A DNA stretch of 64,000 bases, taken from positions 2,914,001-2,978,000 of the forward strand of contig JBLDXI010000019.1 of NCBI GenBank assembly GCA_047495785.1, given 5' to 3'. The DNA comes from Lepidodermella squamata (taxonomy: Eukaryota; Animalia; Gastrotricha). Positions within the stretch are counted from its first letter, which is position 1, and each line of letters opens with the position of its first letter. Positions 30,127-64,000 of this stretch are shown here, piece after piece. The translations under genes and the position numbers were made by a program. The notes beneath the pieces are model-generated. The model saw nothing but the letters and a program-made list of their open reading frames with translations. It was not told where the DNA came from and did not search any database.

Positions 30127-30469
30127 TTGAATCGTTTTTCTACTGTCCAGCTTGTCAACATTTCCTGTTTAAAATATGCTAAACCTAAACTCACTAAAAC
30201 TCTTCTAACATTATTATCTTAATTGTGTGTGAGTGCCATCAAAATTATCATTACAGCTTCGCTAGCTAATAACAACAATTGCCATCAATACTCTTTAGAA
30301 TAAATTTTGGTTCTTCAGGCGGAATCATTTTGTGGATTTGGTGTTCATTTTCCTAAGGCCTTTCGTCCTCAGTCTTGCAGTTTAAATACATTTGCTTTAC
30401 GAGCATTAAAGTGTGCATTAAATTGTTCTGCCCTTTATAATATAACAGTCTGTTTATTCTTGATTCAAT

Positions 30470-36372: not shown

Positions 36373-36753
36373 CCCGTGATTATGTCATCTTTTATTATGA
36401 TTTGCCTTATGAGCTGATACCTTATACCAGATACTTTCTGTCATCTACAATTCTATTCAAAAAACTAATCTCCAATTTTACAATTTGCTATCTGCTGATT
36501 TTGTCGATCGTCACTAATGAGGTAAAAGCTTCGTGAAAATACTCAATACTCACGAAATAAATCAAATTCTTGAAACGTTGGGGATTTTCTCCATATTGAT
36601 GACGGAGAGTCAAGAATAATTCCAAGTTAAACCTTCAAGTCCAAGTAATACATCATTTATTTATAATTTTAACTGATATTTACATCTACAAATATTGAAC
36701 GGTACAATTTAATTGAAGAGAGATTGAAGAGGGAATAAAGTGTAATAATAATT

Positions 36754-39700: not shown

Positions 39701-40991
39701 AGCAGCGCGCCGCCCTTCACGTAGGCGCAGTTGCCCAGAGTCGGGACTTCTTCGGTCAACCAGGCGTTCCTGTTCACATACTCCAATTCAGTACCGTCAA
39801 TCCACGCATAAATTGGCGGACCCTTTGGACCATAGAGAACGGGCTTTGGACGTTCGATTTTAAGACCAACCCAAATCTCGCCATGAGCACCTTGCGTAGA
39901 TCGTTTGAAATCCGCGAACTCGGATTGATTCTTAAACACTGCCAATCGCCCATTCATCAGCTCGCATTGAGTCTCAGCTGCGTACCATGTTACATTGCCA
40001 TCAACCGTTTGCCAAATACGCTGAGCATGCAAACAAGAATCTACAGAGTCGAAGATAATCTGCTTCAGAAATCGCTCCTCCCCGGACAAACATCCAGTCG
40101 AGGCATTTCGACATATAAAAAAACCACCATCTTCTTGCGTACAGCGTTGGAAAGCGCTGTTATTCGACTGTAAAACTGTGGCCTGAGAGAAATAAAAAAT
40201 TCAAATAAATACTTCTAAACACAGTAGCAAAGCTAACCGGGGGCTTTGGCTGGTTCAAGCAATCATTGTGATTTGCCCAGAAATCCTTATGATCCTCGAA
40301 AATGTTCACCTGTCCGACAAAAGAGACCTGTGTTCCGTGAAATGATTCCGTGAAGTTCAGCCTACCCGGTTGTACCGTGAAGGACAGTTGGTGTAACAGA
40401 GTATTTCCTCGCCCACTAGACAGCTCACTACTCCCTATGGAAAGAATGAAATCATGAAATCATGAATTTGGATAGGATTTCATTTTACCCCAGTGAGACA
40501 TGCTTTCTTGTCGAAAAATTTGCCGTTTGAATAACGTCCAGTTTCATTTTTCCAGCAGCCGCTGCTAGCCAGTCGGCAGTCTGTAAAAATTCCAGTCCCT
40601 TTCTCGAAGCATCGAACGTGAGGGCTCTGGATGCTAGGATTCAGCACTCGATTGAAAATAATTATTTCGAATGTTCTGGGTTGAACAGAAAATATTTACT
40701 CACTTGTTACTTTTACGCATGAGGTGAAATTGTCGAAAAATTGATCGCTGTTGATCTGAAAGGTGGGTGATATAATGTCCCAGATAAAAATGAGAATTCA
40801 AGCAAAATACCGAATCTATGGGACACCTTGATCTCGAGGGCGTGCATGCCGTTGGTCCACTGCTAGATATGCATTGCATTTTCTTTGCATGCGATGAAGC
40901 GACGATTGTGAATCGAAAAGCATCGACGCCACGCAGGGCAGACAACGCTAATGGTTGCTGAGGTGATTAAAAACCAGATAATAATATTCAT
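36754..40991 (-). pseudogene. Multi-exon four-CTLD C-type lectin gene, copy A; 5' exon carries a frameshifting internal deletion
   Basis: CTLD exons near 39472-40170, 38660-39140, 37850-38355, 36754-37295 (TW.EA...CE...GRLA, WVGL, WIDG, C...C....FICE); reading from ATG 40991 hits TAG after 42 codons, where copy B has further exons. Confidence 0.7.
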
Positions 40992-41044
40992 CTTTAATCA
41001 AAGTTTGAATGAGAAGAAAATCAACTTTTTACGGATTTTAAAAA

Positions 41045-41069
41045 CACGAGTCTGGCGTCGAAAGTCGAA
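41045..41069 (-). promoter_or_regulatory. Conserved proximal upstream block of the lectin genes (also 47009-47033 and 52926-52950)
   Basis: CACGAGTCTGGCGTCGAAAGTCGAA identical about 55-80 bp upstream of all three ATGs. Confidence 0.5.
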
Positions 41070-41287
41070 CGGTGGCGCAAAAAATGAGTGCGAAATATTG
41101 TCCTGCTAATTATCTGAAAAATTGAAACGGATCTGGGACAGCTTTTGATTGGCGCTAACGCGTGCACCTGTTGCGCAATCATGCGAGATCAGTTCATCTT
41201 TTCATGAATTGAACTCGCACTGGTGATTTGATGCTCATATTTGATGTCAAATTAGAGTTACAGGCGGTTTAAACTTCGCACAATTAA

Positions 41288-41675
41288 CCCTTTCACCGCC
41301 GGAGGTATTCTCGGCCGAGAATACAGCCTTTTCAAATGGTAATAGCCGCCGCGCGATTAAAATTTGTATTTCGACTTTCACCGATATTTACTTATCCTTT
41401 GTGCAAACACGTAATTAGTAGGTAACGCGTAATTTTCACGCGCAAAATTGAGTTGAACAATGAGTTTTGCGTGCGTTGCGTAACAATAACAACAATGTGT
41501 TGACATTGATTGCTTACTTTCGAACGACTTTCGACGCCGGCCCCTTTGTTACTCGGTGCGCGTATATAATACATTATTAGTGAAACATTATGATTTCGCG
41601 TACATGGCATATTATTAGTGATTCACAGCCATTCTCGGCCGAGAAGACAGAAATCTGTCTTCGGCAGTGAAAGGG
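41288..41675. mobile_element. Non-autonomous piggyBac-type element (388 bp)
   Basis: TTAA on both sides; termini CCCTTTCACCGCCG / CGGCAGTGAAAGGG; subterminal palindrome TTCTCGGCCGAGAA at both ends. Confidence 0.9.
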
Positions 41676-43083
41676 TTAAAAATATAAACTACACCAGCCT
41701 GACGTCGAATGGCAAAATATTGTCCCGGTAATTATCGGAACAATCGAAACGGAACTGGGTGAGTGAGGCGACAGGCGGACGCTCTCGGGGTCCTCGCGCA
41801 GAGGCACGCACTGGGCAGCATTTGCCGAATTATGTATGCGAATTCAAGGTGAGATACTTAATAGTACACGCTCGTGGCCTTGGAGCTTGGAGGGTTGAAA
41901 TTCAGACTTAAGCCGGCGAGTTCAAAGGTACCAAAGGAATCGGCGTTGAAAGAGCCCGAGATACAAGCACCGGTTTTGTTGTTAGCTATTACGCCCCCAT
42001 AAAATCAGAATATTTGGATGTCCCGCTCCTGAGATGAAAGGCGACGGATAGCGTCATCGCTGAAAATGCAGACAGCTGCACTCCCGACATTTATCCTTAA
42101 TACCGAATATTCAAACGAAATACTCCACACTGTTTACAATTTCTCGTTTATTTCGAATAATAACGTGCGTTGTGTATACGTGAATGCAATGGCAACGTTT
42201 AGATTCAGAAACTTTTAATGTTAACAGGAATGATTTTAATTATTTCAGAAATAAACCTTTAATGTGGTCGATGAGCATGTTTTTCCGGTTACCAATCGCT
42301 TGCATCAATGAAAATAAAGCCGAGAAGTGCATGGTCATTATAAAAAATGGTAAACGATGGTAATTACTTGATTGATAAATAACAGTGATTAACTCGGTTT
42401 TGCGTGTTTTCACGGTTTTTATCAAGATTTTGAGCGAGCTAAGAATAATTAAAACATATTTACGTGGGTATTTTTGCGACTCATTTACAACATGTTCAAT
42501 TATAGCCGTCAAGCCGGATGGGATGCCTGATTTTAATTCAGTTCCTGGCCGAATTTAATCGCCATAATGAGAATTCCACGAATTTTCCGCAATTCCGTCA
42601 AGCGTTTCTATACATTTGTTGGACTAAATTTCCTTGCTAGATAAATTGCTGAGATGCCAATTCGGGGTATTTTTCATTATTATGCAAAGTATTTCTTGCT
42701 TGAAAAATTGCTGAAAAATTAATAATTGATCGCTTAAAAATCGCCCGGGGTCCACCGATTCTGTTGGCTAAGTATCGATGGCTAAAATTGGCCAAAAACC
42801 ACTGAGTTTCAGGAATAAATTTGTTATATAGTGAAGTGAAGCTTTCATGCAGATTTATGGAACTCTCGAGCAATTTTGAATTTTTGCCTTTTTTGACTTT
42901 CACCAACGATGGCTCCCTAACGGTGAGGAATTGGCTCATGAGATTTTGCGAGCTTACTGGAATGGGTTCTGACTGTTTATGGTCAAAATATGAGCCCGGA
43001 GAACCTCATGGTTATGGAATGACAAGCGTTGGACAAGCGTTTTATGCAGATTTAGGTTACCGTACCCTTACCTTACTTAACAC

Positions 43084-43740
43084 CAGAGCTGGAAAACCTG
43101 CACGATTTCCTACGCGCCGATTTCGAAATTTCCTACCAAACTACCACTTCCCTCAATTTTGGTCCGGATACGATCCAGAAGCCTCGATTTGGAAGACGGC
43201 TACGATTTGGCAGGACACGGATTAAAAGGGGTCTTTTAAAAAGATTTACTTGTTTGTTTTTTCGAGCGCGCGCACTTATTTTTTTTGGTTAATCACTCAC
43301 TCGCACACACAGCAACACGACCATTGTTACGCATTAGGCGGCGTGCTTGTCGTCCCTTATTGGTCTTATGGTCATTTAAAATGAAGTTAAAGTGCCTTAT
43401 TTGCACACTAACAAACATCAAGTTTTTGAAAATGTCTGGTTCACCAGCGGTCAAACGCTTGAAGCCCAACAGCGGCGCGGCAGTTGTTGCGCCCGCAGTT
43501 CATGCCAGTAGCAGCGCCTTTGCAAGCAACACAACCCCTGACAACAGCGATCAGGTCTTGCCACCGCCACATCCTGGAAAACGCCGCCGCGGTCGTCCAT
43601 CAAACGCTGAAATCGCAGCAAGGGCCGCAGCCGCCGCAGCTACCGGTTCAAGTGCAGCATCGACAAGCCGTCCTGATGAAGAAACGCCGGCGCCGACACC
43701 CGCGAAAAGTCGCCGTGGTCGTAAATCGAATGCAGAAAAG

Positions 43741-43778
<38 letters not shown>

Positions 43779-46180
43779 TGTTGCGGCTGCTGTCGCCATC
43801 GAAAACGGAGCAAACTCGGTCGGTTCTGTGAACAGCGTTGAACAGCCAGAGGCGCCAATGGCCACGCCAATCATCGCCGTCGAGGAGGAACCAAACAACA
43901 ACGAAACAGTCTCGTAAGTTTTTTCGACTACGATGCTCCTCTTGCGCTAAAAACATAAATTCCACAGCATTCAAGATGCCCCTGGCCCATCTTCGTCGAT
44001 ACAAGTTGCTGTCTCAAATCCGCTTTACGAAACCTCGGCCGATGAAAGCTCTAGCGATAGCGATGACGGCGACTGGCAACCTCCCGCCCTTGCTCAACGC
44101 GTGTCTTCCTCGTCAGCCTCCTCGTCCAGTGTTAGCCGTCACTCTTCGCCACCTGGTGATATCGATAGCGAATACTTCGACGCCACTACTGTCAACAATC
44201 AGCCTCATATCGCCGAGAAAATTGAAACTTTCAACATTGTCAAATCTCAACAAGGGCATGATCACTACCAATATCATGGTTACTGCTATAAGCAAAAGTA
44301 CAAATCGGCGAAGCACAATCAGATCCTACTTGGTTGCACTTTTCCAGACTGCGAAGGCTCGGCTTACATGACGAAAGAACTGTTGCCAATGTCAGTTTCG
44401 TCGAGTGGTTGCGGCTGGAAAGAACATGATCATGGCTCTCAGCACGACTTTCATGATGCGAAGAACCTTCGTCATGCAATCAAGGTATGTCTTTTATGAT
44501 GTTTTCTGTTCAATTGTAACGATACTTTCCACTTTCAGGAAAAGGCGTCCGCTTCGAAGGAAAATCCGAGCAAAATCCGAGCTTCTGTTTCGTCTGGTGC
44601 TTCGTTGGGCGTAACTGCTCATTTGAAAAGCCATCGCGCAACGCAGCAGCTCGTTCGCAGGGCGCGCAGAAAGACCGCTGCTGCCGATGACATACCGACG
44701 CTTACCCCGCCGACGCGACTCGCAGAAATCGAAATCCCGCCACACCTGGCGACAACGACTCGCGGCGAGCCATTCGTGTTTTACGACTCGAAGTCGGTTC
44801 GGGCGCCGGACGACCGTCGGATCATTGTCTTCGGTACGGAGAAGAACCTGGATATCCTTGAGGAATCTCAGCACCTTGCTGCTGATGGAACGTTCAAGGT
44901 AGTAATTCGGCGTTTTCCGTATTTCGCGATTATTTAGTGCTGATTCTGTTTTAGATAACGCCGACTCTGTTTAAACAAGTTTACATCTTGCACGCAGTTG
45001 TTGGTGGTGCTTCTCTGCCACTGTTCTATTGTTTGCTGCCTGGTTTCGAAACAGCGTACTATCAAGAAGTGCTGGACCAAATTCGATTTCGCCGGCCAAA
45101 CCTTATCATTCGATCGGCTATGACGGACTTTGAAAAGGCGGCGATGAATGCCATTCAAGACACGTGGCCCAATGTCGACTTGGCTGCTTGCCTATTTCAT
45201 CTGGCCCAGTCGATATATCGCCGGCTGAAGAAAGATGGCTTGCAAGAGCTCTATGCGACTGATGAAGAGATTCGCCGGCGATGTCAATGGCTGCTTGGTT
45301 TGGCATTCGTGCCTGCGCAGTCCGTTGTTACCATTTTCGACCGGCTGGATGAAAAACTGGCTGAGGTGCTGGTGTCGGCACCGAAGATGGCAAAGCTGTA
45401 TGACTACTTCAGGAATAATTACATCGGCTCCGTTCGCCGAGGCATCCACAAACCGCCGAGATTTGCCATCGGGGTTTGGAATATGTTCCAAAGAACCATC
45501 GATGATCTTCCGCGAACCGACAATTCCGCCGAATGTGAGATTTGTTTTCAGCGTATCATTCTTACCTAACAACCCTGTTTTTTATAGCTTGGCATCGCGC
45601 ATTTCAAAAGCGGCTCGATCGCATACACCCGGATGTCTATTCGCTCGTCGAGGCTTTCCGAGCAGAGCAAGACGGGGTGGAGCAGGTGTATGACAAGTTC
45701 AAGAAGGGGCAAGGAATCGCGAAATTTGAGGCTAAAAAGGTCTATGTCGTATCTCAGCAAAACATACTGGCCATGACCGGTGATTTTCACAAATATAAAG
45801 ACATTATAAAATACCTTGATGCGATGAATGCGAATTTAGGTCTAAAGTTTCATTCATAAAATTGAATAAACATATTAAATAAAAACGGCCAGGTTTCGCA
45901 AAAAAGTAAAAATGTACAGTGGCATCATAAATGCATAACAAGGCGTAATTGTGAAATCGTTTTTTTTTAATTATTTTCTGCCAAATCGTAGCCTTCTATT
46001 TTTTATTTCCCAAAATAAAATCTGCCAAATAGTATGTCTGCCATTTCACTCTTCCAAATCGAGGCTTCCGGATCGTATCCGGACCCTCAATTTTTGGCTG
46101 TTTCATAAGCCAAAATTGCCTACTTTTCCCAAAATTTCCTACGCACCTGGTGCGTCATTTCTGCAAGTTTTCCAGCTCTG
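43084..46180. mobile_element. Autonomous-looking MULE (Mutator/Phantom-like) transposon, 3097 bp
   Basis: TIR CAGAGCTGGAAAAC(C/T)TGCA plus an inner IR block (43162-43196 / 46050-46084); 8-bp TSD CTTAACAC (43076-43083, 46181-46188). Confidence 0.92.
43432..45859 (+). CDS. MULE transposase with AT-hooks and FLYWCH-like finger; join(43432..43913,43968..44484,44539..44898,44955..45534,45588..45859)
   Basis: KRRRGRPS, SRRGRKS; GYCY...C....C...HDH; AADGTFK, MTDFEKAAMNA, CLFHLAQ, PRTDNSAESWH; no stops after splicing. Confidence 0.92.
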
Positions 46181-46552
46181 CTTAACACTTACTTAGGTTA
46201 CCTTACTTAAACACTTTAACAAATATTCTGCTGAGATTTATAAAGCAGGAATACCTTTTGAAATAAGTCACAAAATAATCGAAAATCGAAATGTTTTCAA
46301 ATTCTTTTAAATTCTTTCTTAACAGCGATAAAAAAACGTTATAATCAAATAAAAGCAAGCTAACAACTTTTATCTAACAAAGAGTAATTACTATCGTTTA
46401 ACATTCGAATGGTGTAGTGTAAAAGCGGCTATTGATTTACAAGGGAATACTTACGGCCATAGAGTAATGCTATTCCTACATTCGCACTATCTGGTCCGCC
46501 TTAAAAAATTTAATTCAGCCATAGAGCAATTAAATTTCCCTATGGCAAAATT

Positions 46553-46951
46553 TTACCATGCGTATGTAGGAATTTGGTGAACAGCTGCGATTATTATGAC
46601 GAAAATGATATTGAAAGTGAACACAACATTACGAAAGATTCGCCTTGTGGACAGCGAGTCAGCAGGGGTCGGCAAACCGGCGACATGTTCGCAGCGTTGT
46701 AACACATTATAGTTACACCAGTTGTGCATTTCTTCCAATTATCGAATTTATAGACCTGGAATTAGGCGATTATCGGCTATTGAAGAGAATAAGAGTGTTC
46801 GTACTCCTGTCTCGTATCTGCGATCGCAGCCACCCTTCATTTCATTTCTGCATGCGATAAATAGATATTGATTTGAATAACATCGACGCCACGCTGGGAA
46901 GACAGCGCTTATGGTTGTCGAGGTGATTAAATACCAGATAATAATATTCAT
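46553..46951 (-). pseudogene. 5' exons of a third lectin-family paralog (copy C), without CTLD exons of its own
   Basis: MNIIIWYLITSTTISAVFPAWRRCYS...CRNEMKGGCDR, then CTTGVTIMCYN...CRPLLTRCP, homologous to 52868-52450. Confidence 0.7.
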
Positions 46952-48142
46952 TATTGTGCGATACAAATGCGATTGAAAACAAATAATTTTTTGTACGGAT
47001 TTTAACAACACGAGTCTGGCGTCGAAAGTCGAATGGTGTCGCAAATAATGAGTGCGAAATATTGTCTCCTAATTACTTGAAAAATTGAACCGGATCTGGG
47101 TCAGCTGTTGATTTCACATTCAACAGAACGAGTTGTTTTTCGCAACACCATGCGGTTTAGCCCGCACGTGTTGTGCAACCACGCGTGGTCAAGTCATCAA
47201 TTGTAAAAAAACGAGCTCATATTCGTCCTCATATTTGTCATGGCGTGACAATGGGGGTTATTTTGGAAGCCGTCCTTATCGATGAATTCAACTTTATCCC
47301 ATAATGTCAACTTTATCGCCCGGGAATAAAGTCGACTCTATGACCAGTATGATTTTCGAACATAAAGTCAACTTTATTTCACTTAAATCGGCTTCATTTC
47401 GCAAACATGAATGTACCATGGCCGATAAAGTCGACCGGCCTCGACTTTAACGGCCAATTTTTGTCCGATATCGTGCGTTTTGACCTCAAAAACATTTGTT
47501 GACCTAATTGTAAAATAATCATAGCAATGCACGAAGCTGGTAAAAAGTTGCCATGAAATTTTAAAGTTGGAAAAATACTTGTTATTACGAAGTTTGAAAA
47601 ACGAACGAGCGACACCTGATTTAACAATGTGATGACGCCAGATATTGCTGACGTAAGCAATTGCAGTAAAACGATTAGGCGGTCTAAAGAGCCCGATTGG
47701 CCAAAATAGAACCTTCTCTTGGGAAAAGTCATTTTTCATGATTTTTCATATGACTGGATAATTTTCGCTTTGCCTGGTGGATTATGCCTCCGAACGTTTC
47801 TCGACGCTAGGTTCCCCGAAGCTCCCATTTCGTTTTCAATGATGTTGCCTGGCAGACCATGTGGCTTGTGGCTCAGAACTTATTCATATTTCGACCGGCC
47901 TGCTGTTCATCAGCCAAATAATTCTATTAAAAAAAGAAAATAAGAAAATTGAAAATGGCTTCCTTATTCTGCATGATGCAGCTTTAAAAAAAATGGGTGG
48001 AAACACTCATAATTTCTGCTGAAACCTCAGCAACCATATTCTTGATTTATTTCTGATTTATGATGCCAAATAATATATACAACTAAAAATATTGAGCTAT
48101 ATAATTTAATTAAATCAACTGGAAGTGGGGCAAGAAATCATA

Positions 48143-51100
48143 TCAAGGGTCAAATGGGATATAAGGCCCAGGGCCGAATGATCCAAATGAGCCAAACGAG
48201 CCAAATGAGTCGTTTGGACCACGGGGTATCTCTTCCGGTTCTGCCACAAATTCGCAAATATATCCATCTATTTCAGCGTCACATGACGTCGCACGCACGA
48301 GTAAATTTCTCTGCCCGCCCTTCTCCACCGTAGCGCAATCGCCGGGTTCCAGATCGGGATATTCACTTGGCGGCTCTTTAGTAAAATTAAAGTTTGCGGG
48401 CCAGTCTTTCCCGCCATCCAACCATGTCCATGTGCCATTGATTCTCCTCAGGCCGACCCACAAGATGTCAGCGATAAAGTCATGCACTGATTCATTCTCT
48501 ACATATTCCCGGATGTCAAATACCGCCAACTGACCTTTTTCGACCTCGCAAGCAGTTTTAGCTTGTTGCCACGTCGTACTTACGCGGTAGTACTCGAACT
48601 TCCTATCAAAAATCTCGCACCGAGCCCTGCTTACAAATTCGCCTCGGTTAGACTCATTCTTCAAGCAGCCCGTAATGTCTGATCGGCAAATGATGGCCTG
48701 ACGGTCCGAGCATTGAATGTATTCTGACTAATAAAAGAAAACAGTGAATTGAAACGTATTCGAAGTAATTCAAAACAGTAGGGTTTTACAGGCTCTAATT
48801 AAAAATATGACGAATAGCTTATATCCATCGAACCTGTGGCTCCTCGTAAGTTTCGCAAATGAAACCCGGTGTTAATTCATTGCAAGACTGAACATCGACA
48901 ACGCGACCCTTAGTAAGAGCGCAGTCACCGAGGTTAGCAGCCGAATCCTGCAGCCAAGAAATCCGTCGGCCAGGATCCAGAGCTGTACCATCAATCCAGG
49001 AGAAGAAAGGCGAGGTCTTCGGCCCACTGGCCAAGAGCCCAACCCAGTGAGTGTAGAAAGCTCTCTGCGCAATGCGCAGGTAATCTGCAAAATCAGTTTG
49101 GGTTTTGAATACCGCGAGTCGTCCGTTCAGCTTTTCGCACGAAGCCTTCGCCTCGTACCACGTTCCGTTGGCTCGCACCGGTTGCCAAACTCGCTTTACG
49201 GCTCCACAAGCAGTTGCAGACATGAAAGTCGTGAGTGGCGGCAGTCTGTCTTCACCTTCGTAACAACCCGTTGACGCCCTTCGACAGATCACAAAATCAC
49301 CATCTTTTTGGACGCACCGATGATATGAATACGAGGGGGCCTGAAAAACAAAGAGTCAAACTTGTTGGTAAGGGTATCAACAAATTTTCCAATCGAAATT
49401 ACTGTTTTTTCAATGTCGAAATACCCTTAATCGGCCAACACGCTGTTTATGGGCTGAATTAAATTTCATAGCCGGCTCTTATGATCTTCTAGTACTGAAC
49501 CAACTCAAAATCCTCGAACTGACCTGAGGTATTCCGTAGGTTTCGCAGATGAAACCATCGGCGCTTGACGTGCAGGGCTGAGTTTTGAGTGAACCAAGGG
49601 CAGTATATCCGCATTCGCCAGGTTTCGCCATCGAGCTGCCCAACCAAGTGTGCAAGACAACAGTCCCATCAATCCATGCATAGACTGGTGATGCACTGGG
49701 TTCGTTGTAGGCGAGACCGACCCAGCTTGCGCCAAGCCCGGGTTGCACGTTTAAGAAGTTTTGGTAATCAGCTTCCTTCCTGAAAACCGCAAGACGTCCG
49801 CCCATTTCTTCACACTGAGTCTTAGCTTCGAACCATGTGACAGAGCCATGCACCGGCTGCCAAACTCGTTTTGGCGTTTCGCAGTCGTATACATCGCCAA
49901 AGTTTGTCAGCGGCGGAATACGTTCCTCGCCGTCGAAACAGCCGGTTGATGCTCTTCGACAAACAACGTCCCCATCTTTTTGCACACATCGGTGGAATAG
50001 GTATTTCTGAAAATTAGCGGAAAATAAATAACAATTACCAGCGAGCGGACAAAATTTTGAAACAGCAATATCAGAACAAAACGCACAAACAACGCTTTTG
50101 AAACAAAAAAACGCACCGGGTCAGGTAATCCCGGCACTGAATGAGTGAGACATGTCTCATAATTAGCCCATAATTAATACTTAATACTAATAATACTGAG
50201 GCACTGCATGGACAGTTTCACACGGTCTTAGAAAGTGAATGCCGAATAGCTATACCCCTCCCCGTTTTCTCAACGCTTTTATGGTGTACGCCACTGAGCC
50301 CTTATCCCAATGCAAAAATTGTTAAAAGAACAGATCTAGCGTCGGGCCCTTTGCGGTTATCAAGAAAGTATTGTAAAAGGTAATTGCCCTCTATTCACTT
50401 CTTTCCTTTATTTCGATCCGCCTCACATTTATTTACGGTATTTAAGGTTCTGAGCATGCGATGCAGTGAATTGTAAAAAAACAAAAACAAAAAGCTCACC
50501 GGGTCAGGTAATCCCGGCACTGAATGAGTGAGACATGTCTCATAATTAGCCCAGAAATGTGCTGATGCAGCGCCATAACTTCTATCCTGCAAAATTAAAG
50601 ACATTACTTTGAATCTGGTATCCTAGTTTCAAGCTCACTTCTCCAGAGCTCACAGGACACTGTCTGTAACAGATATATTCTCCCCCTGTCAAACAACTCA
50701 CCGCCTCCTGTCAAAATTATGAGCAAGCGGAAGTCGAATCGCATATAAGTCTTACCCCAAGCATGCACATTTTTCTGCTTGGAAAGGTTTCTGGAGAGTA
50801 AACGGTGGTTTCGTTCGCCGAACAGCCATCGTTGACAGGACGGCAGTCCATGAATACTCGAGACGTTTGATCGAAACACCGAATATGAGGTACGGCGTAG
50901 GTCTCGCAAACGAAGCCCTGACTTGACGAGGTGCAAGGCTTCGTTAGCAGCGCGCCGCCCTTCACGTAGGCACAGTTGCCCAGAGTCGGGACTTCTTCGG
51001 TTAACCAGGCATTCTTGTTCACATACTCCAATTCAGTACCGTCAATCCACGAATAAATTGGCGGACCCTTTGGACCATAGAGAACGGGCTTTGGACGTTC

Positions 51101-52868
51101 GATTTTCAGACCAACCCAAATCTCGCCATGTGCACCTTGCGTAGATCGTTTGAAATCCGCGAACTCGGATTGATTCTTAAACACTGCCAGTCGCCCATTC
51201 ATCAGCTCGCATTGAGTCTCAGCTGCGTACCATGTTACATTGCCCTCAACCGTTTGCCAAATACGCTGAGCATGCAAACAAGAATCTACAGAGTCGAAGA
51301 TAATCGGCTTCAGAAATCGATCCTCCCCGGACAAACATCCAGCCGAGGCATTTCGACATATCACAAAACCACCATCTTCTTGCGTACAGCGTTGGAAAGC
51401 GCTATTATTCGACTGTAAAGCTGTGACCTGAGAATGATGATGACAAATTTGAAATCAATGCTTCCAAGCACAGTAGCAAAGCTAACCGGGGGCTTTGGCT
51501 GGTTCAAGCAATTATTGTGATTTGCCCAGAAATCCTTATAATCATCGAAAATGTTCACCTGCGCGACAAAAGAGACAGCAATCGGGGTGTTCCGTGAAAT
51601 GATTGAATTTCAGCTCACCCGGTTGTACCGTAAAGGACAATTGGTGTAACAGAGTATTTCCTCGCCCACCAGACAGCTCACTACTCCCTGTAAAAAGGAT
51701 AAAATCGTGAAATCCTGAATTTGGATAGAAATTTCATGTTACCCCAGTGAGACATGCTTTCTTGTTGAAAAATTTTCCGTTTGAATAACGCCCAGTTTCA
51801 TTTTTCCAGCAGCCGCTGATTGCAAGACGGCAGTCGGTGAAAATTCCCGTTGATTTGTCGAAGCATCGAACGTGGGGGCTCTGGATGCTAGGATTTTGCA
51901 CTTAATAGAAAATCACTGCTATGAATGTTGAATAGGACATATTTACTCACTCGTTACGTTTAAGCATGAGTTGAAATTGTCGAATCGTTCATCGCCGTTG
52001 GTCTGAAAGTTAGGCGATAATAGATCTCAGATAAAAATATAAATAGTTGAAACAAAATACCGAATCTAATGGGCACTTTGATCTCAGAGGCGTGCATGTC
52101 GTTGGCACGTCGCCGGATTTGCATTGTTTGAACGTCTGATTCTGGATATGAATTTGATTTAAATTGCCATTATTGTGAGCTATTTTCATGCAAAAACACC
52201 TTGAATGTAGCTTCGAAGGCTTCACAGTCCTTCCAGTCATATTTCAGCGTTTTCGATTCAAACCTTCGAACCTTAAGAATAGATGAATCAAAATGACATG
52301 AATTAGTTATTACAAATGGAAATATTTTTCTGATATAGCTCGAGTACGGCGAGTTTAGATATGAACGATTTACGAGTGCTGCATCAAAAAATATCGAATT
52401 GGCCAAGCTACTCGACTTATATAAGACAAAATTAGCATAAATAATAATTACGGGGATTTCGCCAAATGGACAGCCTCTAAGCAGGGGTCGGCAGATTGGC
52501 GACATGTTCTTTTGATTGTAACACATTATTACGCTCTGTTAAAAAAATGTTTTCATATAGTTAACTGCATAATTCAAGAACAAGATTGTCGATTATTGAG
52601 CGAGAAAGTTTTATAGGCGCGAAACTTACACCAGTTGTGCACTCCTTCAAATTCTTGTAGTTACCGGTCTGGAATTGAGCAATTATCGACTATTAGAGAA
52701 AATAAGATTTTTTCATACCCCTGTCTCTTTCGGGCGATCGCAGCCACCTTTCATATCATTTCTGCACGCAATAAATTGATATTTATGAATCGAATAGCAT
52801 CGCCGCCATGCAGGCCAGACAGGGCCAATGGTTGTGGAGGTGATCAAAAACCAGATAATAAGATTCAT
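48143..52868 (-). CDS. Multi-exon secreted four-CTLD C-type lectin, copy B (apparently intact; not all junctions resolved)
   Basis: Signal peptide at ATG 52868; Cys-rich spacer exons; CTLD ORFs 50717-51364, 49479-49985, 48819-49292, 48143-48664. Confidence 0.8.
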
Positions 52869-56329: not shown

Positions 56330-56682
56330 GTACAGCTTGGAGCTATTCATAAGAAAGGCGAATTTTTAAGTTTTGAATACAGCATGAAAGGAAGACGTGT
56401 CGCCGTCTACGGAGCCAAGGGCACAATCCTCGAGTGCGTACCTGCTGGTAACACTGCCAAGCAAATCCACCCGAGACCGCGGTTTCCTCCCTCCCGGTGT
56501 AGGACGCCATTCACCGGCAATCAAGATATGGCTACTCAGTACGCAAAGCCTGGGGACCAAGGTTCGACCATCAACCATGGGAATAGTTGACTCATAAGCC
56601 TTGTGATGATGTCTGATACCAAATGCTAAATGTCGAAAGGCAACTTGCATAAATAAAGAGTATGAGTATGAGTATGAGTATG
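56330..56682 (+). mobile_element. Probable 5'-truncated LINE 3' end
   Basis: GC-richer coding-like stretch ending in AATAAA followed directly by a (GAGTAT)4 tail, as in CR1/L2-group elements. Confidence 0.5.
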
Positions 56683-57586
56683 TCCTATATGGAACAACCG
56701 AGGGAAATTAAACGAAGAAAGGACTCAATTCTAGAAGAAGATACGATGCCCAATCTGCTAGCCGAACATTGAATCCTCCATTGAATCAGGAGCCAACATC
56801 AACTTGCGAGTACAAGCGGCTATTTGCGCCTCTACTTGCTCGTCAAACGGAAGGCCTTCTGCCAAGAAAGGTGAAGCTTTCTGCCATTAATTTTATGATT
56901 GCAATTGAGTAGTAAGGGGGGGGTCTCCAGCAACGGTCAAATTTTCAAATATTTTCCCACGGTCGGAGAAATGAATCATAAGAATAAATATGGAAAATGA
57001 TGGAAAAATAAATGTCAAGGTCATGTGTAAAGTTTTGGCGCCAAAAATTTAAAATAAAAGTCAAGGTCGTTTTCCCAAGGTCACGTGACAGCGGCAGGAC
57101 CGATCATTATTGATTGATTATCGATTATCGATTTTCGGAACTTATATCGGTAATAACAGGATGACAAAGATGTTTTCCTACGATCAGGTGTGACTGCGAC
57201 AGTACTTATCGATTATTGGAAATCACGCTGATTGGAAATAATGAAATTCAATAGGTCGTTTGATGCGATTTTCCCACGGTCAGGATCGATGCTCGCAAAA
57301 TGGAAACTTCCGAAAAGTCAAAATAAAGTAAACAAATACCACGATTCAGTAGGAAAAAAAATAAAATAAAATCCCAAAAATAAATGTCAATTTCGCTGGC
57401 TGCGTTGTCTATCGTAACCATCAAATCGATTTTTGATTAATAATTAAATTACATACACACCTTGCATTGAAATTTTATTGCGCAATTAAAACACTCACTC
57501 ACTCACTCACTCACTCACTCACTCACTCCTTGCGCCTCACAAAATGTTCAAAATCACTCCTTGCGAATTGTGTGAAAATCATCGCA

Positions 57587-57883
57587 TCAATCTAACATGG
57601 GGGCATTTAAAATGCTTCGAATCAGCCGAACACGCTCAATCACTTGCACCAGCATTAGTAAGCCTTCCGCAGTTTCGCGTTGTAAAATCATCAACGAGTC
57701 GACTTTACGCTCGAGCTGATCAATTCGGAATCCAATATTGTCAATGGCAAGTGATAAATCGCGCAGTTGATTCCGCTGCTGCTGCTGTTGAGGATGGACA
57801 GTTACAACCGCAGGAGATAGCTGTTGTTGTTGTTGCTGCTGTTGTCCTTGAGGGCTTCGAAAACCACTGGCTCGAGAATCCAT
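57587..57883 (-). CDS. Gln-rich coiled-coil protein (Polinton cargo; upstream exons possible)
   Basis: poly-Q, then heptads LRDLSLAIDNIGFRIDQLERKVDSL. Confidence 0.5.
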   Translation of the reverse strand: MDSRASGFRSPQGQQQQQQQQLSPAVVTVHPQQQQQRNQLRDLSLAIDNIGFRIDQLERKVDSLMILQRETAEGLLMLVQVIERVRLIRSILNAPMLD

Positions 57884-58301
57884 CGATACTAATAATGATG
57901 AAGATGATGATGATCGTGCTGAATGCTCGCAAAGTAGTAGTAGTACTAGTACAGTATCAAGAGGTTGGTAATAAATTGCGAAAATTTGCAGGAGTAATAT
58001 AGGTATTGCAACTGCAAAGTATTGTTAGTGCATGAAGTTACTTAGATGGCGCGAAAGCACACCAATAATTTGTAATGCTCCTGCTGCTGTCAAAGTTCCA
58101 TTATACACTGGCGTTAATGCACTATAAGCGCGGGTAGAGAGGAGCGGCACGTCAACACACGTCACCGCTCATCAAAACGATCACCGCTCACCAAACCCTG
58201 GGAATAAAAAAAAACCGACAGGTTTCGCGCGCTTTACTTTCGTGACATGTAATATATGCGATTCTTGTTATAATATTGCGAATTGCTAATAATTCGAAGA
58301 A

Positions 58302-59093
58302 ATGGAGGAAATTTTCAAACACCCTTGGAATTTTCACCATATTATTGACAACATTTTATCGTGTATTCATAATGATCATGAGCTCGGCCATTTGTGCAAA
58401 GCTTATTTCGAAACCGGGAGGTATGTAGTTAAATATCACCTGGAGAAGCGAATAGAGTGGTACCTAAGGCCTAACGATAACCGCTTTACGGCTATAACGA
58501 GTCGGATTGTTTTCGCGAATAGACCCACAGGTGATAGCCTCACACCATATTGGGTCGAATATGCAGCTTTTAAATTCGGCGCGACGAAAAGTCTCTTCGA
58601 AATTCTTCAAAATTATCACGTGACAGATTACATCGTCTCCTTATTCATGCGTCAGTTATTATTAAATAAATGAAAAATTAATAAAATTATTATTATTATT
58701 ATCATTATTTCAGACCACGAACCGGATATGAAGTGTGCCCTTGAACCATTCTGGTCTATCTACATGCGAGAAAACGATCGAGCGTCGCTCTTGCTAGTGG
58801 CAGCGGCTAATCCAAACCTGACAAGCCGCTCGCTATCTCGAATGGTAGAAGCCGGGGCTGAAATCAATTTCGTGTCGCCGAGATGGCTACTTTCACCGCT
58901 ATTAGAAGCCGCAGCCACTGGCTCAACCAGTTCGGTTTTGTACCTGGTCAACATGCGTGCAAACGTATATCACGCCGATTTGCATGGTCAACGCCCCATC
59001 GACCGTGTTCATACGTGCGAGTGGGAGAAATATCGCATTTTGCGTCAGGCTGAATCGACCAAGGCAACATCAAAAATAAAAAGATGGCGCTGA
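58302..59093 (+). CDS. Ankyrin-repeat protein with F-box-like N-terminus; join(58302..58650,58714..59093)
   Basis: FHHIIDNILSCI..DHELGHLCKA; GAEIN...SPLLEAA..G....V.YLV..RANVYHADLHGQRPID; 63-nt GTCAGT..TTTCAG intron keeps frame. Confidence 0.72.
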
Positions 59094-59243
59094 TGGGGCG
59101 GCGGCGACCGGTAAAATTCCAGATGATGATGATGAAGCAGAATAATAACGGTGGTCAAGACTTGAAATTTTTTTCAGAATAAAAGGCGCGCGCGCCACCC
59201 AGTTTTAATTTTTTTCCTATTCATTTTGCAATTTTCTCAAATA

Positions 59244-59807
59244 ATGTTTGATATCGACGTTTTTATCAGAAATACTGTTGCTACTTTTAACCTGGGCGGT
59301 GTTGAACTCGAGCTGCGTAAAATAATCACGTATTTCAGAATGGCAGAAATATCACCGAGATTCAGGAATGCCGTTATCATCAAGGAAAAATACTATTCCG
59401 CCTTGATTTTCAAAACAGGCAACATTGTTGTTATAGCCAAGAAACCAGAATTGGCTCTGAAATGCGGGCGGCGGTTAGCGAGAAAACTTCAGCTGCAGAG
59501 CAACAATAACTCGATCAAATTTCAAAACTTTCGAATTCGTAATTGTACCGTTACTGGTCAACTACCAACGACTATTAGCTTCAATACAACTCTCCTGAAT
59601 GAATTATCTTCAATTAGCACTCGAGTAAAGCTCGACTTGACGCGGTTTCCTGCTTTGCGAATCGAAAATATTATGGACCAGAAAGTTAGTATTAATTTGT
59701 TTTCATCAGGTCGATTTTGTATTACAGGGATAACCGATCCCAAATCTGAAATGCAAAATATGGCTGTGGAAAAATTTCTTGTTATCGCTTTGGCGAATTC
59801 AAAATAA
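59244..59807 (+). CDS. Divergent TATA-box-binding protein (TBP) homolog, core domain only, intronless
   Basis: Two TBP repeats: IRNTVATFNLG..LELRKI...AEISPRF.NAVI....SALIFKTGNIV and FQNFRIRN...RFPAL....KVSINLFSSGRFCITG. Confidence 0.92.
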   Translation: MFDIDVFIRNTVATFNLGGVELELRKIITYFRMAEISPRFRNAVIIKEKYYSALIFKTGNIVVIAKKPELALKCGRRLARKLQLQSNNNSIKFQNFRIRNCTVTGQLPTTISFNTTLLNELSSISTRVKLDLTRFPALRIENIMDQKVSINLFSSGRFCITGITDPKSEMQNMAVEKFLVIALANSK

Positions 59808-60116
59808 AATTTCAATTTTTTTGTGTTAAAACAAATCCACCTTAATTTTTTTATTTTTACTTCGTACTCACTCTATATATTATAATCGCGCACAGCCAAT
59901 AGCATGCGAGGTGGGCGGAGCTTGTGGACACCACGCACTCACAATTGTTTTGGCAATCATAACTAGTAGTAGTAGTAGTAGTAGTAGTAGTAGGTAGTAG
60001 CCAGAACAACCATAAAACATGAATTGAATAGACCTTAATGTATGAATGACAATCTCAATAAATATAATATAAATAGCATAATAATAATAATAATAATAAT
60101 AACAACAACACGAGTA

Positions 60117-60293
60117 ATGAAGACTTATACCTCCCTAAATTATGGTTCCAAAATCACTGTCCTGCCATCCTGCCTGTTGCGGAAAGTGGATTTCGACATT
60201 TATATGCAGCAACCTGAAATAATGCTAGCCAAAGTCACCATTTTACCTAACTACCTGTCAGCCAAAGTGGAGTTTGACATATATAATTATTGA
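60117..60293 (+). CDS. 58-aa micro-protein with two 18-aa repeats
   Basis: KITVLPSCLLRKVDFDIY / KVTILPNYLSAKVEFDIY; the repeats differ by synonymous changes (act/acc, ctg/tta, cca/cct, ttc/ttt, att/ata). Confidence 0.6.
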   Translation: MKTYTSLNYGSKITVLPSCLLRKVDFDIYMQQPEIMLAKVTILPNYLSAKVEFDIYNY

Positions 60294-60427
60294 TGCGGAC
60301 CCGTCATCAATCGTATAATAATAAACTTGGGTGCACTTTTGGGGGCTAAACGCAGGAAATATTAGCGGACTGAGGTTACACATTATAGTTTTCACATTTA
60401 TAGAATAATTCTATAGAATAACTTGTT

Positions 60428-60955
60428 ATGGATCAGCAATATAACCCTATTGCTACCTACAACGAACTGTGTGCTGCTGCTCGCGATGCACAGCGTTTAA
60501 TAAATATGCTGCAAGCCTTTAAGCAAGTAATGTCCAGAGAGGTGGACATAGTAAAACGGGACCTCAAGTATCTTGAGGAACATAGGTAAGCTTTTGACGA
60601 ATTTTCTGTCGGCTAATCTAATTTATTACGCGTTAGAATGATGATACCCCACACAATGAGTCCCGCCATCGAGGTACTACTCGGCCAACAGGTCATACTG
60701 GTTGAGATGAATGAACGAAGCTGCGCCCTGAAATGGTTGCTCAACGATATGATTAGCCAGGTAGAGCCAGCTGCCCGGACACAGCACGCAGCAGCCCAGC
60801 AGGCAGCAGCAGCAGTAGCTCAGCAACAAGCAGCAGCCCAACAGGTAGCAGCGCAGCAACAGGTAGCAGCGCAGCAAGCAGCCCGACAGGCAGCAACAGC
60901 ACGAGCCGTTCTGGACGAGGTCTTGGCCGAAGCCTTGGACGAAAATCAAGAATAG
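60428..60955 (+). CDS. Helical Ala/Gln-rich protein; join(60428..60585,60637..60955)
   Basis: ATG 60428; 51-nt GTAAG..TAG intron keeps frame; AAQQQV repeats. Confidence 0.7.
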
Positions 60956-61788
60956 TCGCAGCAGAAGCAGTCAGAAGCAGTCAATGTGGAAAAAGAGGAG
61001 ATACGTCGCCCCACGCCTTGGTGTATATTCATATCACGGTAACAAAATATATGCTTAATTTACTTACACTAATAGCTCCACCTGAAAGCTGTCACTTCAC
61101 TCGGTTCGAAGTTTTTGTAAATATAGCATACAAAATATGCAATATATTTATTACATTATCTCTATCTCACTCGAGGACACACACACACCCACACTGTAAT
61201 AATGAATTCGACTTCGAATTTTTTGTATATAGCGATTGTTATTATTATTATTATTATTATATGCATGCTGGCATGTAAATAGATATCTCTCTCTCTCTTT
61301 CTTTGAAAAATTTTTAAACATAGCGCTTGCTTATTATTATTATTATTATTATTTCGAAAAATTGTAATAATAAGAATCATGTAGAATTTCGCGCTTTAAC
61401 CTGGTCGAACACTTGAAGTTCCATTTTTTTTAAATAAAATAAATCATGACTTTTATACTCCCATCTTTGAGTTCATTTTGAGAATGGAATGCAGATTTTT
61501 TTCAGTGCGCGTGTTCATTGAATAATAAAATTGGACTCACGGCTCGTGGATATGATTGGTGTGCGAGGGGTGCTAACCAACCAATGAGCGCAGAGATGTA
61601 TAGCATTACTAGTATAATTTCTTTTGCAGTAGTAGTCGTACACTACTTCTTAACCGGTAGTTTTTCTACACACTTAAATAGTAACAATTTCCGCGCCAAA
61701 ACAGCAGCAGCAGCACCGAGTGAGTATTTAAAAATGCAGGCCTCTCATAAAGAATAATTTACCCAATTTCATCGATATAATTCTAGTT

Positions 61789-64000
61789 ATGTTGACTGAC
61801 CTCGGCTATCACTGTTATTCTTACCTATTCGGAATTGAGGTCCATAAGTATTCCATCACGGACTTGGATGTCTTACAATCTGGATTGGGATGGGAAACCG
61901 AAGACGATGACGATGAAGGTGGTCATCAAATCGTCGCACTTCTGACCAAGATTCAGCTCAGTTTTGAGTCTGTAGCTCAGCAAATTAAGGCAACTTTTCC
62001 AGATCGGTAATTTCCATTTATTTCCATGAAAATTTATTGCAATCTGTTAATAATAATATTATTAATTTGAAGAGATCACGTTCGAGTTGAATGCCACCAC
62101 GAAGCCCTGCACACCCCATTCTTAACCTCTTATATTGAAGTAAAGGAATTATCCGGAGCTCTGATTCTAAACCAGGCCAACTCGGTTTTACAATCTAGGC
62201 TGTGCGCAACAATGGAAGGGGGTAATTAATTAATTTAAAAAATCAGAAAATTCAAATAAAATAATTATTACTATTTTTAATATTAAAAAGGTTGGACGTT
62301 TTCTGTCTTCAGAATCAAGACTAGTGCATTGGAAGAAGACGAACTAGCCCTAGGGGCTGGTCAGCCGAAGAAAAAGCGACGTTTAGAGCAGACATTGGTC
62401 GATTTTATACTGTCTCACAGATCGGTTCTGTTCATAGACAATGACGATCGCTTGTGCCTATTCAGAGCCATTGTTCACGCTCTAGCTTACCGTGATTTTA
62501 ATGAGCCGAGGGCTGGTCATGAACGTCACGGAAATTTCGAACTATTGCGTCCCTATTATTCGAAAGATCGCGATGCATTAACACCATTGGCAATCCAAGA
62601 GCGAGCAGTAGCATTCGAATACGAAGGGCAATTGGCTAAGCAGCTGATGGAGACTGCTGGTATTGATGGAAATAAAGATCGCTATGGCATCACGGATTTT
62701 AAAAAAGCTGTTGAAACAATAGGGCTACCGTATCGTGGTAAATTCTGGTACCTGAATACTATTTCGACCCCTTACTAATTCTAAGAATTTAATTTTCTCA
62801 GGGATTATTTACAACTTCAAAACGAAACAGGTTGTCGCAATTCATCCTCCGGCAACTGTTGAAATAGCTGACGAGCGAAAAATTTACATTGGTTTTATCA
62901 GTAGTCAAACTATTGCTTCACATGTCGAAGGAGGCGTAGGGTCGTTCGAAAGTGTCGGACACTACGTCGGCCTAACTGGTATTTCTAACATATCAGGCGG
63001 AAAAATCATGTGCCCATACTGCTTCATGCTCCATAAGAAAAATTCCGTAGCGCATAAATGCAGTCGAAAGTGCAATAGGTGCCAAACCGTTGGGGCAGAT
63101 TGTAAAAGCAGTCGAGAGCGGGACATAATATGTCGTGGCTCTTGCGGACTATATTACCATGGAAAGCAGTGCTATGAAGCTCATGTCAAGGTGAACCCAA
63201 CTACTGGAAAATCAATCTGCGATTCTTTCTTCATGTGCAGCAAATGTGGAAGAACGTTGCCGGCGAAAGCTCGAAAAAAGCACAAATGTACGTGGTTGCG
63301 CAATTCGAAGCATGCTCAGGGAAATTTAATCTTTTAGGTGAAATTCGAAACTGCCGTGTCTGTAAAGGTGATTTGCCTCCACGCGACGAGTCTGCACCGC
63401 ACGAGTGCGTTATTCAACCTGGTAGGATTGGGAAAGTAAAGCCGAGGTTGCTTGCGTTGTTTGATTTCGAGACAATTCGAGGCAACGATGGCACCCTGAT
63501 ACCTGTAGTTGTTTGTCTCAATTTCTTTTGCGAATCTTGCAAATTCCTACCGAGCTCTGACAAATGTCCCGCAAATTGTACTAATGATGATCCACGCACT
63601 CACTCATTTGTCTCTGACGGAAGTGACAATTCTTGCGTTAACAAGCTAATGCGGTACATTCTTCAGGAGCAGTTCAGAGGTCTCTTCCTGTTGTCTCACA
63701 ATGGAGCTCGGTAATTTTAATTTCGAAAAACACTTTAGTTTTGAGATTTATTTCCCTACTATTACTATAACAAGCTTCGATCACATGTTCATCATGGCTT
63801 GGCTGCAGAGACATGAATACCAATTTGAAACTATCCACCACAACAATAGTGTCATGGAGATCAAAGTTGAAGGCAGCATTGTATTTCGCGACTTTTACTT
63901 GCTAACAATGACGAGTTTGGCAGCGCTTTTCAAAGCATTTGACCTACAAAATGAAGACATTACTGGGAAGCAATTTTTTCCCTACAACCTGTTGACGCCC
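61789..64000 (+). CDS. polB: Protein-primed family B DNA polymerase (Polinton type), 5' part; join(61789..62006,62073..62221,62291..62737,62802..63287,63338..63710,63775..>64000)
   Basis: IDNDDRLCLFRAI...GHY (OTU-like protease), Cys/His-rich region, ExoI LFDFET, ExoII HNGARFD, FRD...L..L.KAFDL...KQFFPY; five frame-preserving introns; true start may lie further upstream. Confidence 0.92.

What the first reader, a model, noticed from the sequence alone, without database searches (positions are those of the whole stretch)
56908..64000. Maverick/Polinton-like element carrying its own TBP and host-manipulation-type cargo
Seen: an AGTAGT terminus, five compact cargo genes (coiled-coil, F-box-like/ankyrin, TBP, repeat micro-protein, Ala/Gln helical protein), then a protein-primed PolB. 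Known: Polinton core genes are pPolB, integrase, ATPase, protease and capsids, whereas TBP homologs are typical of nucleocytoplasmic large DNA viruses; I do not know of TBP as standard Polinton cargo. Inference: an endogenous virus-like lineage that supplies a basal transcription factor and a ubiquitin-ligase adaptor to redirect host Pol II transcription and proteolysis.
Basis: partly seen in the sequence, partly recalled or inferred. Interest (0 to 1): 0.9.

Follow-up and report, generated by a model that had tools for sequence, protein, structure and literature searches.

The report
Maverick element carries its own TBP
A young, likely multi-copy virus-like Maverick transposon in an animal genome encodes its own altered TATA-binding protein, which likely switches on the element's later genes, while its left-arm genes sit behind motifs predicted to be read by the host's cell-cycle factor E2F.

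Summary
Confirmed: the window ends in the left 7.1 kb of a Maverick/Polinton. A 187-aa intronless ORF is a full two-lobed TBP (Pfam 5e-16; model pLDDT 93, TM about 0.8), at most 33% identical to the 122 relatives compared and more like cellular than giant-virus TBPs. It keeps most DNA-contact residues but changes the TFIIB-binding loop (YEPEL to LDLTR). In one public run the whole arm, TBP included, has 4-5 times flank depth and differs from this copy by 0.3%. One contig shows the predicted CAATTG duplication. A separate metagenomic Maverick has a TBP beside its integrase with the same rare loop change. New here: polB has five phase-compatible introns, and E2F-type motifs cluster in non-coding DNA (6 against 0.4 expected). 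Not supported: the F-box (only ankyrin repeats) and redirection of host transcription or proteolysis. Best guess (about 55%): a late-gene promoter factor; its targets lie beyond the window. In print I found only figure-legend labels of TBP in related viruses. This scan already holds 30 notes on Maverick TBPs from at least 4 other genomes.

The parts
56902..56907 (.). Candidate 6-bp target-site duplication CAATTG (palindrome)
   Evidence: Sequence; one X1 contig matches from 56902 inward with another outer flank, as the opposite junction would
56908..57480 (+). Left terminus (AGT)2 and subterminal non-coding DNA; inner edge of the TIR not determined; holds a palindromic E2F-type site (57034-57045) and three TATCGAT repeats
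   Evidence: Depth step and length variants among copies; motifs
57587..57883 (-). 98-aa poly-Gln plus predicted coiled-coil protein, function unknown
   Evidence: ORF; 81% hydrophobic a/d positions in the best of 7 registers; only a sub-threshold HSBP1 hit, E 0.0095
57884..58301 (.). Divergent promoter region with one E2F-type motif facing each gene (58049-58056 -, 58223-58230 +) and two TGACGT motifs
   Evidence: TGACGT is not enriched (140 of 500 shuffles reach 2)
58302..59093 (+). Predicted two-exon 242-aa protein (intron 58651-58713): unassigned N-terminal part plus 2-3 ankyrin repeats; F-box not demonstrated
   Evidence: Phase check; PDB ankyrin hits; no F-box hit; Atlas look-alikes of exon 1 include ankyrin proteins of giant viruses and green algae, scores 0.89-0.91 with low recognition
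59244..59807 (+). Intronless 187-aa two-lobed TBP without N-terminal extension; DNA-binding face largely kept, TFIIB stirrup altered
60117..60293 (+). 58-aa micro-ORF with an internal 18-aa repeat (60150-60203, 60231-60284); frame differs between copies
   Evidence: 5 synonymous, 7 non-synonymous, 6 identical codons; 1-nt indel in the X1 contig; no Pfam hit
60428..60955 (+). Predicted two-exon 158-aa Ala/Gln-rich protein (intron 60586-60636)
   Evidence: no Pfam hit for either exon
60956..61788 (+). polB promoter and 5' leader: E2F-type motifs at 61387-61394 and 61693-61700, CCAAT boxes, predicted leader intron 61720-61786
61789..64000 (+). 5' part of a protein-primed family B polymerase gene in six stop-free exons (61789-62006, 62073-62221, 62291-62737, 62802-63287, 63338-63710, 63775-64000) with five 50-69-nt GT-AG introns; continues beyond the window
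   Evidence: Phases and stops; PF03175 on the last exon; the X1 contig's 7 gap letters all fall in predicted introns and the contig runs 935 nt past the window end

Best explanation
This is the left arm of a young, likely multi-copy Maverick/Polinton element whose own TBP likely acts as a promoter-binding factor for the element's later (capsid and packaging) genes. Shown: terminus, TBP fold, kept DNA-contact residues, changed TFIIB loop, pPolB, clustered E2F-type motifs. Inferred: host E2F-type factors and host splicing express the left arm (polB and cargo) in dividing cells, as E2F sites drive the adenovirus E2 replication genes. The TBP made at that stage would then bind a TATA-like box on the element's right-arm genes and bring in host RNA polymerase II, through its kept basic N-lobe patch and a weakened or rewired TFIIB contact. 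Identity as a Maverick-borne TBP about 90%; this role about 55%.
For: TBP: Pfam 5.2e-16; model pLDDT 93.4; Foldseek TM 0.76-0.85 to eukaryotic TBPs. Kept against 71 aligned TBP rows: both Asn (N10, N100), F56, F135, P136, F153, T161, E35, helix-2 R76/R77/R80 (yeast numbering and labels recalled). On the element: its contig has depth 364 against 74.8 for the flank, and 7 element contigs have 4.0-5.0 times flank depth. Six of them differ from this copy at 17 of 5636 letters, 1 of 720 on the TBP contig. Independent linkage: TBP P0130, a hit, lies directly behind an rve integrase in loci L002/L003 with an A32-type ATPase, PAZ and a weakly hit Ulp1-type protease. P0130 is the only one of 112 scorable hits (of 150) sharing the D-x-T stirrup. 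E2F-type TTTSSCGC: 6 matches (5 sites), all non-coding, against a shuffle mean of 0.42, 0 of 500; 4 in the 56.9-kb flank. No TATA enrichment in the left arm (TATAAA 3 against 5.4), so the TBP's targets are probably elsewhere. Precedent: KSHV ORF24 TBP mimic for late genes (PMC12529657, abstract); E2F and ATF sites in adenovirus E2 promoters (PMC2794291, passages).
Against: No late gene or late promoter of this element could be read, so the target is untested; the late-switch idea is reused from unchecked scan notes. In L002 I saw no shared upstream box by eye and no E2F motif. The first intercalating Phe is one position off register (F40), and T124, G125, R105, R196, L205, V213 equivalents are changed or lost, so TATA binding may be weak or altered. 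The model was built from an alignment of mostly cellular TBPs, which biases the fold comparison. Trees leave the protein on a long unplaced branch; grouping with P0130 is neither shown nor rejected (p-AU 0.44), and pairwise identity is only 30%. The E2F motif was noticed by eye and was one of 10 motifs tested; over the whole window its count (10) is at chance (12.2). Depth comes from one run that may be the source sample, and the tool warns that depth is not a copy number.
Confidence: 0.55

Rival explanations
1. Decoy against the host (closest to the first reader): the TBP occupies host TATA boxes or soaks up TFIIA/Mot1/TAF1 through its kept basic patch but recruits TFIIB poorly, damping host genes.
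For: Basic helix-2 residues kept, C-lobe acidic pair changed to D/T; those surfaces bind these factors (PMC7221094, section 12 and passages).
Against: No host target or expression data. One acidic stirrup residue is kept. Several DNA-contact changes suggest a different sequence preference, not mimicry of host TATA binding.
Confidence: 0.17
2. Brf1/RNA polymerase III bias: the TBP would assemble with host Brf1 to make an element small RNA, like adenovirus VA RNA (recalled).
For: It keeps an acid at the first stirrup position and the N-lobe patch and loses the second acid. PMC7221094 (passage) says the partner of the second acid is divergent in Brf1, and that Brf1 also grips the N-lobe patch.
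Against: No Pol III gene was looked for or seen in the 7 kb; the pattern also fits plain drift.
Confidence: 0.08
3. Non-transcriptional use: the saddle binds and bends the AT-rich termini for replication or packaging.
For: TBP gene lies near polB here and beside integrase in L002; TFIIB loop altered.
Against: The kept N-lobe patch and E35 are transcription-factor contacts; no canonical TATA match lies in 56908-57586.
Confidence: 0.1
4. Passenger: a host TBP paralogue captured as cargo, with no role for the element.
For: Nematode Mavericks carry captured host genes near the left TIR (10.1101/2022.07.12.499685, passages); the fold is closer to cellular than to viral TBPs.
Against: Intact ORF with the family-invariant residues kept at only 33% best identity, near-identical across copies, and a second Maverick has a TBP with the same loop change. 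The host's own TBP genes could not be examined.
Confidence: 0.1

Closest known systems
Mavericks/Polintons (adintoviruses) of animals; PMC8097293, PMC8502044, 10.1101/2022.07.12.499685 (passages read)
   Same: (AGT)2 end motif, 6-bp duplication, PF03175 polymerase, variable cargo region next to a TIR
   Different: polB has at least five predicted spliceosomal introns, whereas core genes are described as intronless; TBP cargo; integrase, ATPase, protease and capsids not visible here
TBP-labelled gene in MELD viruses with adintovirus-like PolB (Starrett et al., PMC8502044 section 3.4 read whole; preprint 10.1101/697771 passages)
   Same: A TBP homologue in a polinton-related element; the preprint legend also lists an Fbox label
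   Different: Only a legend label with no analysis; the figure is not held, so the carrier virus and sequence could not be compared
Cellular TBP (PF00352)
   Same: Two-lobed saddle, both Asn, three Phe in register, basic helix 2
   Different: 25-33% identity, no N-terminal extension, stirrup LDLTR instead of YEPEL, first Phe shifted, several DNA contacts changed
Viral TBPs: Nucleocytoviricota TBP with viral TFIIB (PMC7221094) and herpesvirus ORF24 (PMC12529657, abstract)
   Same: Virus-encoded TBP fold with kept Phe and diverged TFIIB-contact positions; proposed late-gene role
   Different: Lower similarity to these (6-18% identity, TM up to 0.77); N-lobe basic patch largely kept, unlike the viral TBPs of PMC7221094; no viral TFIIB or polymerase seen in the 7 kb available
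Adenovirus E2 transcription unit (PMC2794291, passages)
   Same: Protein-primed polymerase gene behind E2F-type motifs and dependent on host splicing
   Different: Analogy only; integrated element, and binding by E2F is untested

Membership tests
Maverick/Polinton | Terminal (AGT)2 or (AG)3 motif at a true element end | tested here: met
   AGTAGT at 56908 coincides with the depth step; motif as in PMC8097293
Maverick/Polinton | 6-bp target-site duplication | tested here: inconclusive
   One contig matches from 56902 with another flank, as expected for the far junction; single contig, 24 loose letters, and differences near contig ends are not listed
Maverick/Polinton | Long terminal inverted repeats | not testable with these tools
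   Right end outside the window; no genome; loose ends at 57120 and 57234 do not fix the TIR length
Maverick/Polinton | Protein-primed PolB (PF03175) | tested here: met
   E 2.6e-9, above the curated cut-off
Maverick/Polinton | vOTU protease domain before the exonuclease (PMC11161782) | tested here: inconclusive
   D-x-x-x-C-L-F-R-A and H-Y motifs seen by eye in exons 3-4 (motif recalled); no Pfam hit; single-sequence model pLDDT 48
Maverick/Polinton | rve integrase, packaging ATPase, adenain-type protease, major and minor capsid | not testable with these tools
   Beyond position 64000; seen only in the separate locus L002
Maverick/Polinton | Intronless core genes (usual description, not a strict criterion) | tested here: not met
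   Five phase-compatible GT-AG introns; no RNA to confirm
TBP (PF00352) | Two-repeat saddle fold | tested here: met
TBP (PF00352) | Four intercalating Phe and two Asn | tested here: inconclusive
   F56, F135, F153, N10, N100 in register; F40 one position off
TBP (PF00352) | Acidic pair in the C-lobe stirrup for TFIIB | tested here: not met
   D131 and T133; 98 of 112 scorable hits have two acids, 87 have E/E
TBP (PF00352) | Basic N-lobe patch for TFIIA, Mot1, TAF1, Brf1 | tested here: met
   R76, R77, R80 kept; the K145 equivalent is L84 (numbering recalled)
TRF2/TBPL1 | Loss of most intercalating Phe (recalled) | tested here: not met
   At least three Phe kept
Nucleocytoviricota TBP-TFIIB pair | Viral TFIIB in the same genome | not testable with these tools
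   None among the ORFs of 56908-64000; rest of the element unavailable
F-box/ankyrin ubiquitin-ligase adaptor | F-box motif | tested here: not met
   No Pfam F-box hit at E up to 1, no PDB hit at E up to 10; a partial I-I-x-x-I-L-S likeness by eye only, so a diverged F-box is not excluded
F-box/ankyrin ubiquitin-ligase adaptor | Ankyrin repeats | tested here: met
   PDB E 1.5e-6

The most novel reading that the evidence does not exclude
Mavericks of distant animal hosts share a dedicated TBP lineage, marked by a D-x-T stirrup, that gives them a two-step viral programme: host E2F and splicing fire the replication arm in S phase, and the element's own TBP then turns host Pol II onto capsid genes. 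It would be a one-protein late switch, far smaller than the herpesvirus or giant-virus systems, and a handle on why Maverick virions are rarely seen.
Probability: 0.3. Interest if true: 0.8.

Novelty: new variant of a known kind. Interest (0 to 1): 0.5.

Why it matters
How Mavericks control their capsid genes, and whether they make particles, is open (PMC8097293 abstract start: particles not observed). An element-encoded TBP with a changed TFIIB loop, on young near-identical copies, gives a concrete switch to test with reporter and binding assays. The intron-split polB also means that searches for intronless ORFs would score such elements as degraded. The value of this window alone is limited: it holds only the left arm, and the scan has noted the theme many times.

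Tried and rejected
No whole genome held. Close-relative searches were blank: TBP (0 of 76 candidates), polB exon 5 (0 of 63), polB exon 6 (0 of 10); weak evidence, since the queries are short. Viral contigs: nothing for the TBP or for P0084, P0117, P0092; the one polB hit L001 (26 aa, E 5e-4) was not used, and tblastx of the element against L001-L003 printed no hit at E 0.01. Alignment A3 was too divergent to seed a locus search. Of 10 compact TBP hits, 4 were searched for loci and 1 gave context. No RNA holder listed. Run X2 holds next to none of the stretch. The vOTU exon model was unusable. The Atlas search for the TBP did not complete. Trees did not place the TBP (123 rows, quick tree, 28 of 150 hits left out for length or partial cover; 49 rows). 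CCAAT, TGACGT, TATA and TATAAG motifs are not enriched; GGGCGG is marginal (17 of 500). Rejected: the shadow ORF 57544-58002 (+) as a gene (overlaps the coiled-coil ORF, chance-level Pfam hit), AGTAGT alone as proof of an end, TRF2 membership, giant-virus origin of the TBP. No complex was predicted, as no host TFIIB or Skp1 sequence was at hand. Literature: no analysis of a Polinton TBP in the listings (30 of 233; 40 of 203; 20 of 125); 0 hits for TBP/TATA in PMC10748475, the Widen preprint, PMC8097293 (TBP only), PMC11161782 and 10.64898/2026.10.13.758929 (TATA only). Supplements were not read; Repbase and subscription papers are not covered.
Full report
What is there. The first 56.9 kb of the window looks like animal host DNA: a class C GPCR-type ORF (PF01094), NTPase-plus-ankyrin ORFs, lectin-like repeats and DNA transposons. 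The host taxon was not determined, and no genome is held. From 56908 the sequence begins AGTAGT, the (AGT)2 end motif reported for Mavericks (PMC8097293, passage). The hexamer occurs 22 times on the + strand, so I tested the end with contigs of the one public run that holds the stretch (X1, 0.81 of sampled words; possibly the source sample).

Element boundary and copies. The flank contig (54000-56367) has depth 74.8. The seven long contigs laid between 57551 and 64000 have 296-372, or 4.0-5.0 times that. The tool warns that depth is not a copy number, so I read this as 'probably several copies'. The step lies at 56903. One contig matches from 56902, the first base of the palindrome CAATTG, and has a different flank outside it. 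It rests on one contig with 24 loose letters. Six contigs differ from the window copy at 17 of 5636 letters (0.3%), so the family is young. The TIR length could not be fixed.

Genes. A 98-aa poly-Gln/coiled-coil ORF (57587-57883, minus). A spliced 242-aa ankyrin protein; the proposed F-box had no Pfam or PDB hit, and the Atlas look-alikes of its first exon are unnamed or ankyrin clusters, partly from giant viruses, at weak recognition. The TBP (59244-59807). A 58-aa micro-ORF whose internal repeat diverged mostly at third positions but whose frame differs in the X1 contig. A spliced 158-aa Ala/Gln protein. Then polB: six stop-free exons joined by five GT-AG introns of 50-69 nt, 58-91% AT, all phase-compatible; one lies inside the exonuclease H-N-G-x-x-F-D motif (motif recalled). 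The last exon hits PF03175. All 7 gap letters of the X1 polB contig fall in the predicted introns, and of 11 listed indels in the element only one is in a coding part (7 further rows of that table were not shown). Of five listed substitutions in coding parts, four are non-synonymous, which gives no sign of purifying selection at this depth. Core Maverick genes are described as intronless; scan notes report spliced polB in other genomes (unchecked).

The TBP. Pfam E 5.2e-16 with two stretches. The model has pLDDT 93.4 and matches eukaryotic TBPs at TM 0.76-0.85 and 25-29% identity, viral proteins at TM up to 0.77 and 6-18%; it was folded with an alignment of mostly cellular TBPs. No close relative was found: best identity 33% among 122 compared, none by word search. 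Against 71 aligned rows it keeps N10, N100, F56, F135, P136, F153, T161, E35 and the basic R76/R77/R80; F40 is one place off the first Phe; T124, G125, R105, R196, L205 and V213 equivalents are changed or lost; the stirrup reads LDLTR for YEPEL (yeast numbers and contact labels recalled, reference row P0003). PMC7221094 (passages and section 12) assigns the two stirrup acids to TFIIB binding and the N-lobe basic cluster to TFIIA, TAF1, Mot1 and Brf binding, and finds both diverged in viral TBPs. Here the first is half lost and the second largely kept.

Independent test of the TBP-Maverick link. Ten of the hits are compact, long-branch TBPs with almost no annotation. I searched loci for four; P0130 gave two near-identical metagenome contigs. 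There the TBP follows an rve integrase, with an A32-type ATPase, PAZ, NADAR and a weakly hit Ulp1-type protease: a Maverick. Afterwards I noticed that P0130 has D-x-T and FPAL like the query; it is the only D-x-T case among 112 scorable hits of 150. The two are 30% identical and trees neither join nor separate them (p-AU 0.44), so shared origin and convergence both stand.

Promoters. TTTSSCGC occurs six times (five sites; one is a palindrome) in the element, always in its 2.5 kb of non-coding DNA: subterminal, facing the coiled-coil and ankyrin genes, and twice before polB. Local dinucleotide shuffles give 0.42 (0 of 500 reach 6); the 56.9-kb flank has 4. The motif was seen by eye first and was one of 10 tested, and the whole-window count is at chance (10 against 12.2), so the signal is the clustering (binomial 0.0014 for 5 of 9 sites in 11% of the window). 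TATA boxes are not enriched in the left arm. The TBP gene has no consensus E2F match upstream. Adenovirus E2 promoters carry E2F and ATF sites (PMC2794291, passage).

How it most likely works. Shown: the parts above. Inferred: host factors and splicing express the left arm in cycling cells, and the TBP then binds a TATA-like box before the right-arm genes and recruits host Pol II, as KSHV ORF24 does for late genes (abstract). I give this 55%; decoy 17%, terminus binding 10%, passenger 10%, Brf1/Pol III bias 8%. The late-switch idea comes partly from unchecked scan notes; I could not test it here, and L002 showed no shared box by eye.

Novelty. In the library, TBP appears with polinton-like elements only as a label in figure legends of Starrett et al.; I found no analysis (searches; listings only, supplements and figures unseen). 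The scan holds 30 notes on Maverick TBPs in at least 4 genomes, none similar to this one by short words, and none with all my E2F search words. Verdict: real feature, new variant of a known kind, interest 0.5.

Noticed in passing
window 56338-56680: Very high-copy short repeat (X1 depth about 5200) 230 bp left of the element; one X1 contig at flank depth skips 56368-56679, so it looks like a polymorphic insertion.
   Followed up: no
window 12580-16229: DNA transposon-like unit with perfect 433-nt inverted arms and two ORFs (13633-14436, 14999-15748) without Pfam hits.
   Followed up: partly
window 17093-32878: About 9.3-kb tandem duplication holding NTPase-plus-ankyrin ORFs (NACHT/STAND-like weak hits) and class C GPCR-type ORFs, some as long single exons; possibly an immune cluster.
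   Followed up: partly
window 36752-51454: About 11-kb tandem duplication of ORFs that look like C-type lectin domains by eye (not scanned), interrupted by a MULE transposase at 44955-45569.
   Followed up: no
window 7673-10841: 513-aa ORF that resembles a CACTA/En-Spm-type transposase by eye; no Pfam hit.
   Followed up: partly
window 62007-63774: Three of the five polB introns end in AAG instead of YAG.
   Followed up: partly
window 57933-57944, 59964-60000, 61628-61636: Runs of AGT/TAG, the same triplet as the terminus, lie in the leaders of three element genes; may be plain microsatellites.
   Followed up: no
window 57119-57213: Three TATCGAT repeats in the subterminal region (4 non-coding matches against 0.48, 2 of 500 shuffles); some copies skip about 64 nt between them. 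Resembles the insect DRE element (recalled).
   Followed up: partly
L002 3757-4167 and 1833-2165: The metagenomic Maverick with a TBP also carries a NADAR gene (E 1e-38) and a PAZ-domain gene.
   Followed up: partly
P0027, P0076, P0084, P0092, P0097, P0117, P0127, P0138, P0016: Further compact, long-branch TBPs without context; candidates for more Maverick or virus TBPs.
   Followed up: partly
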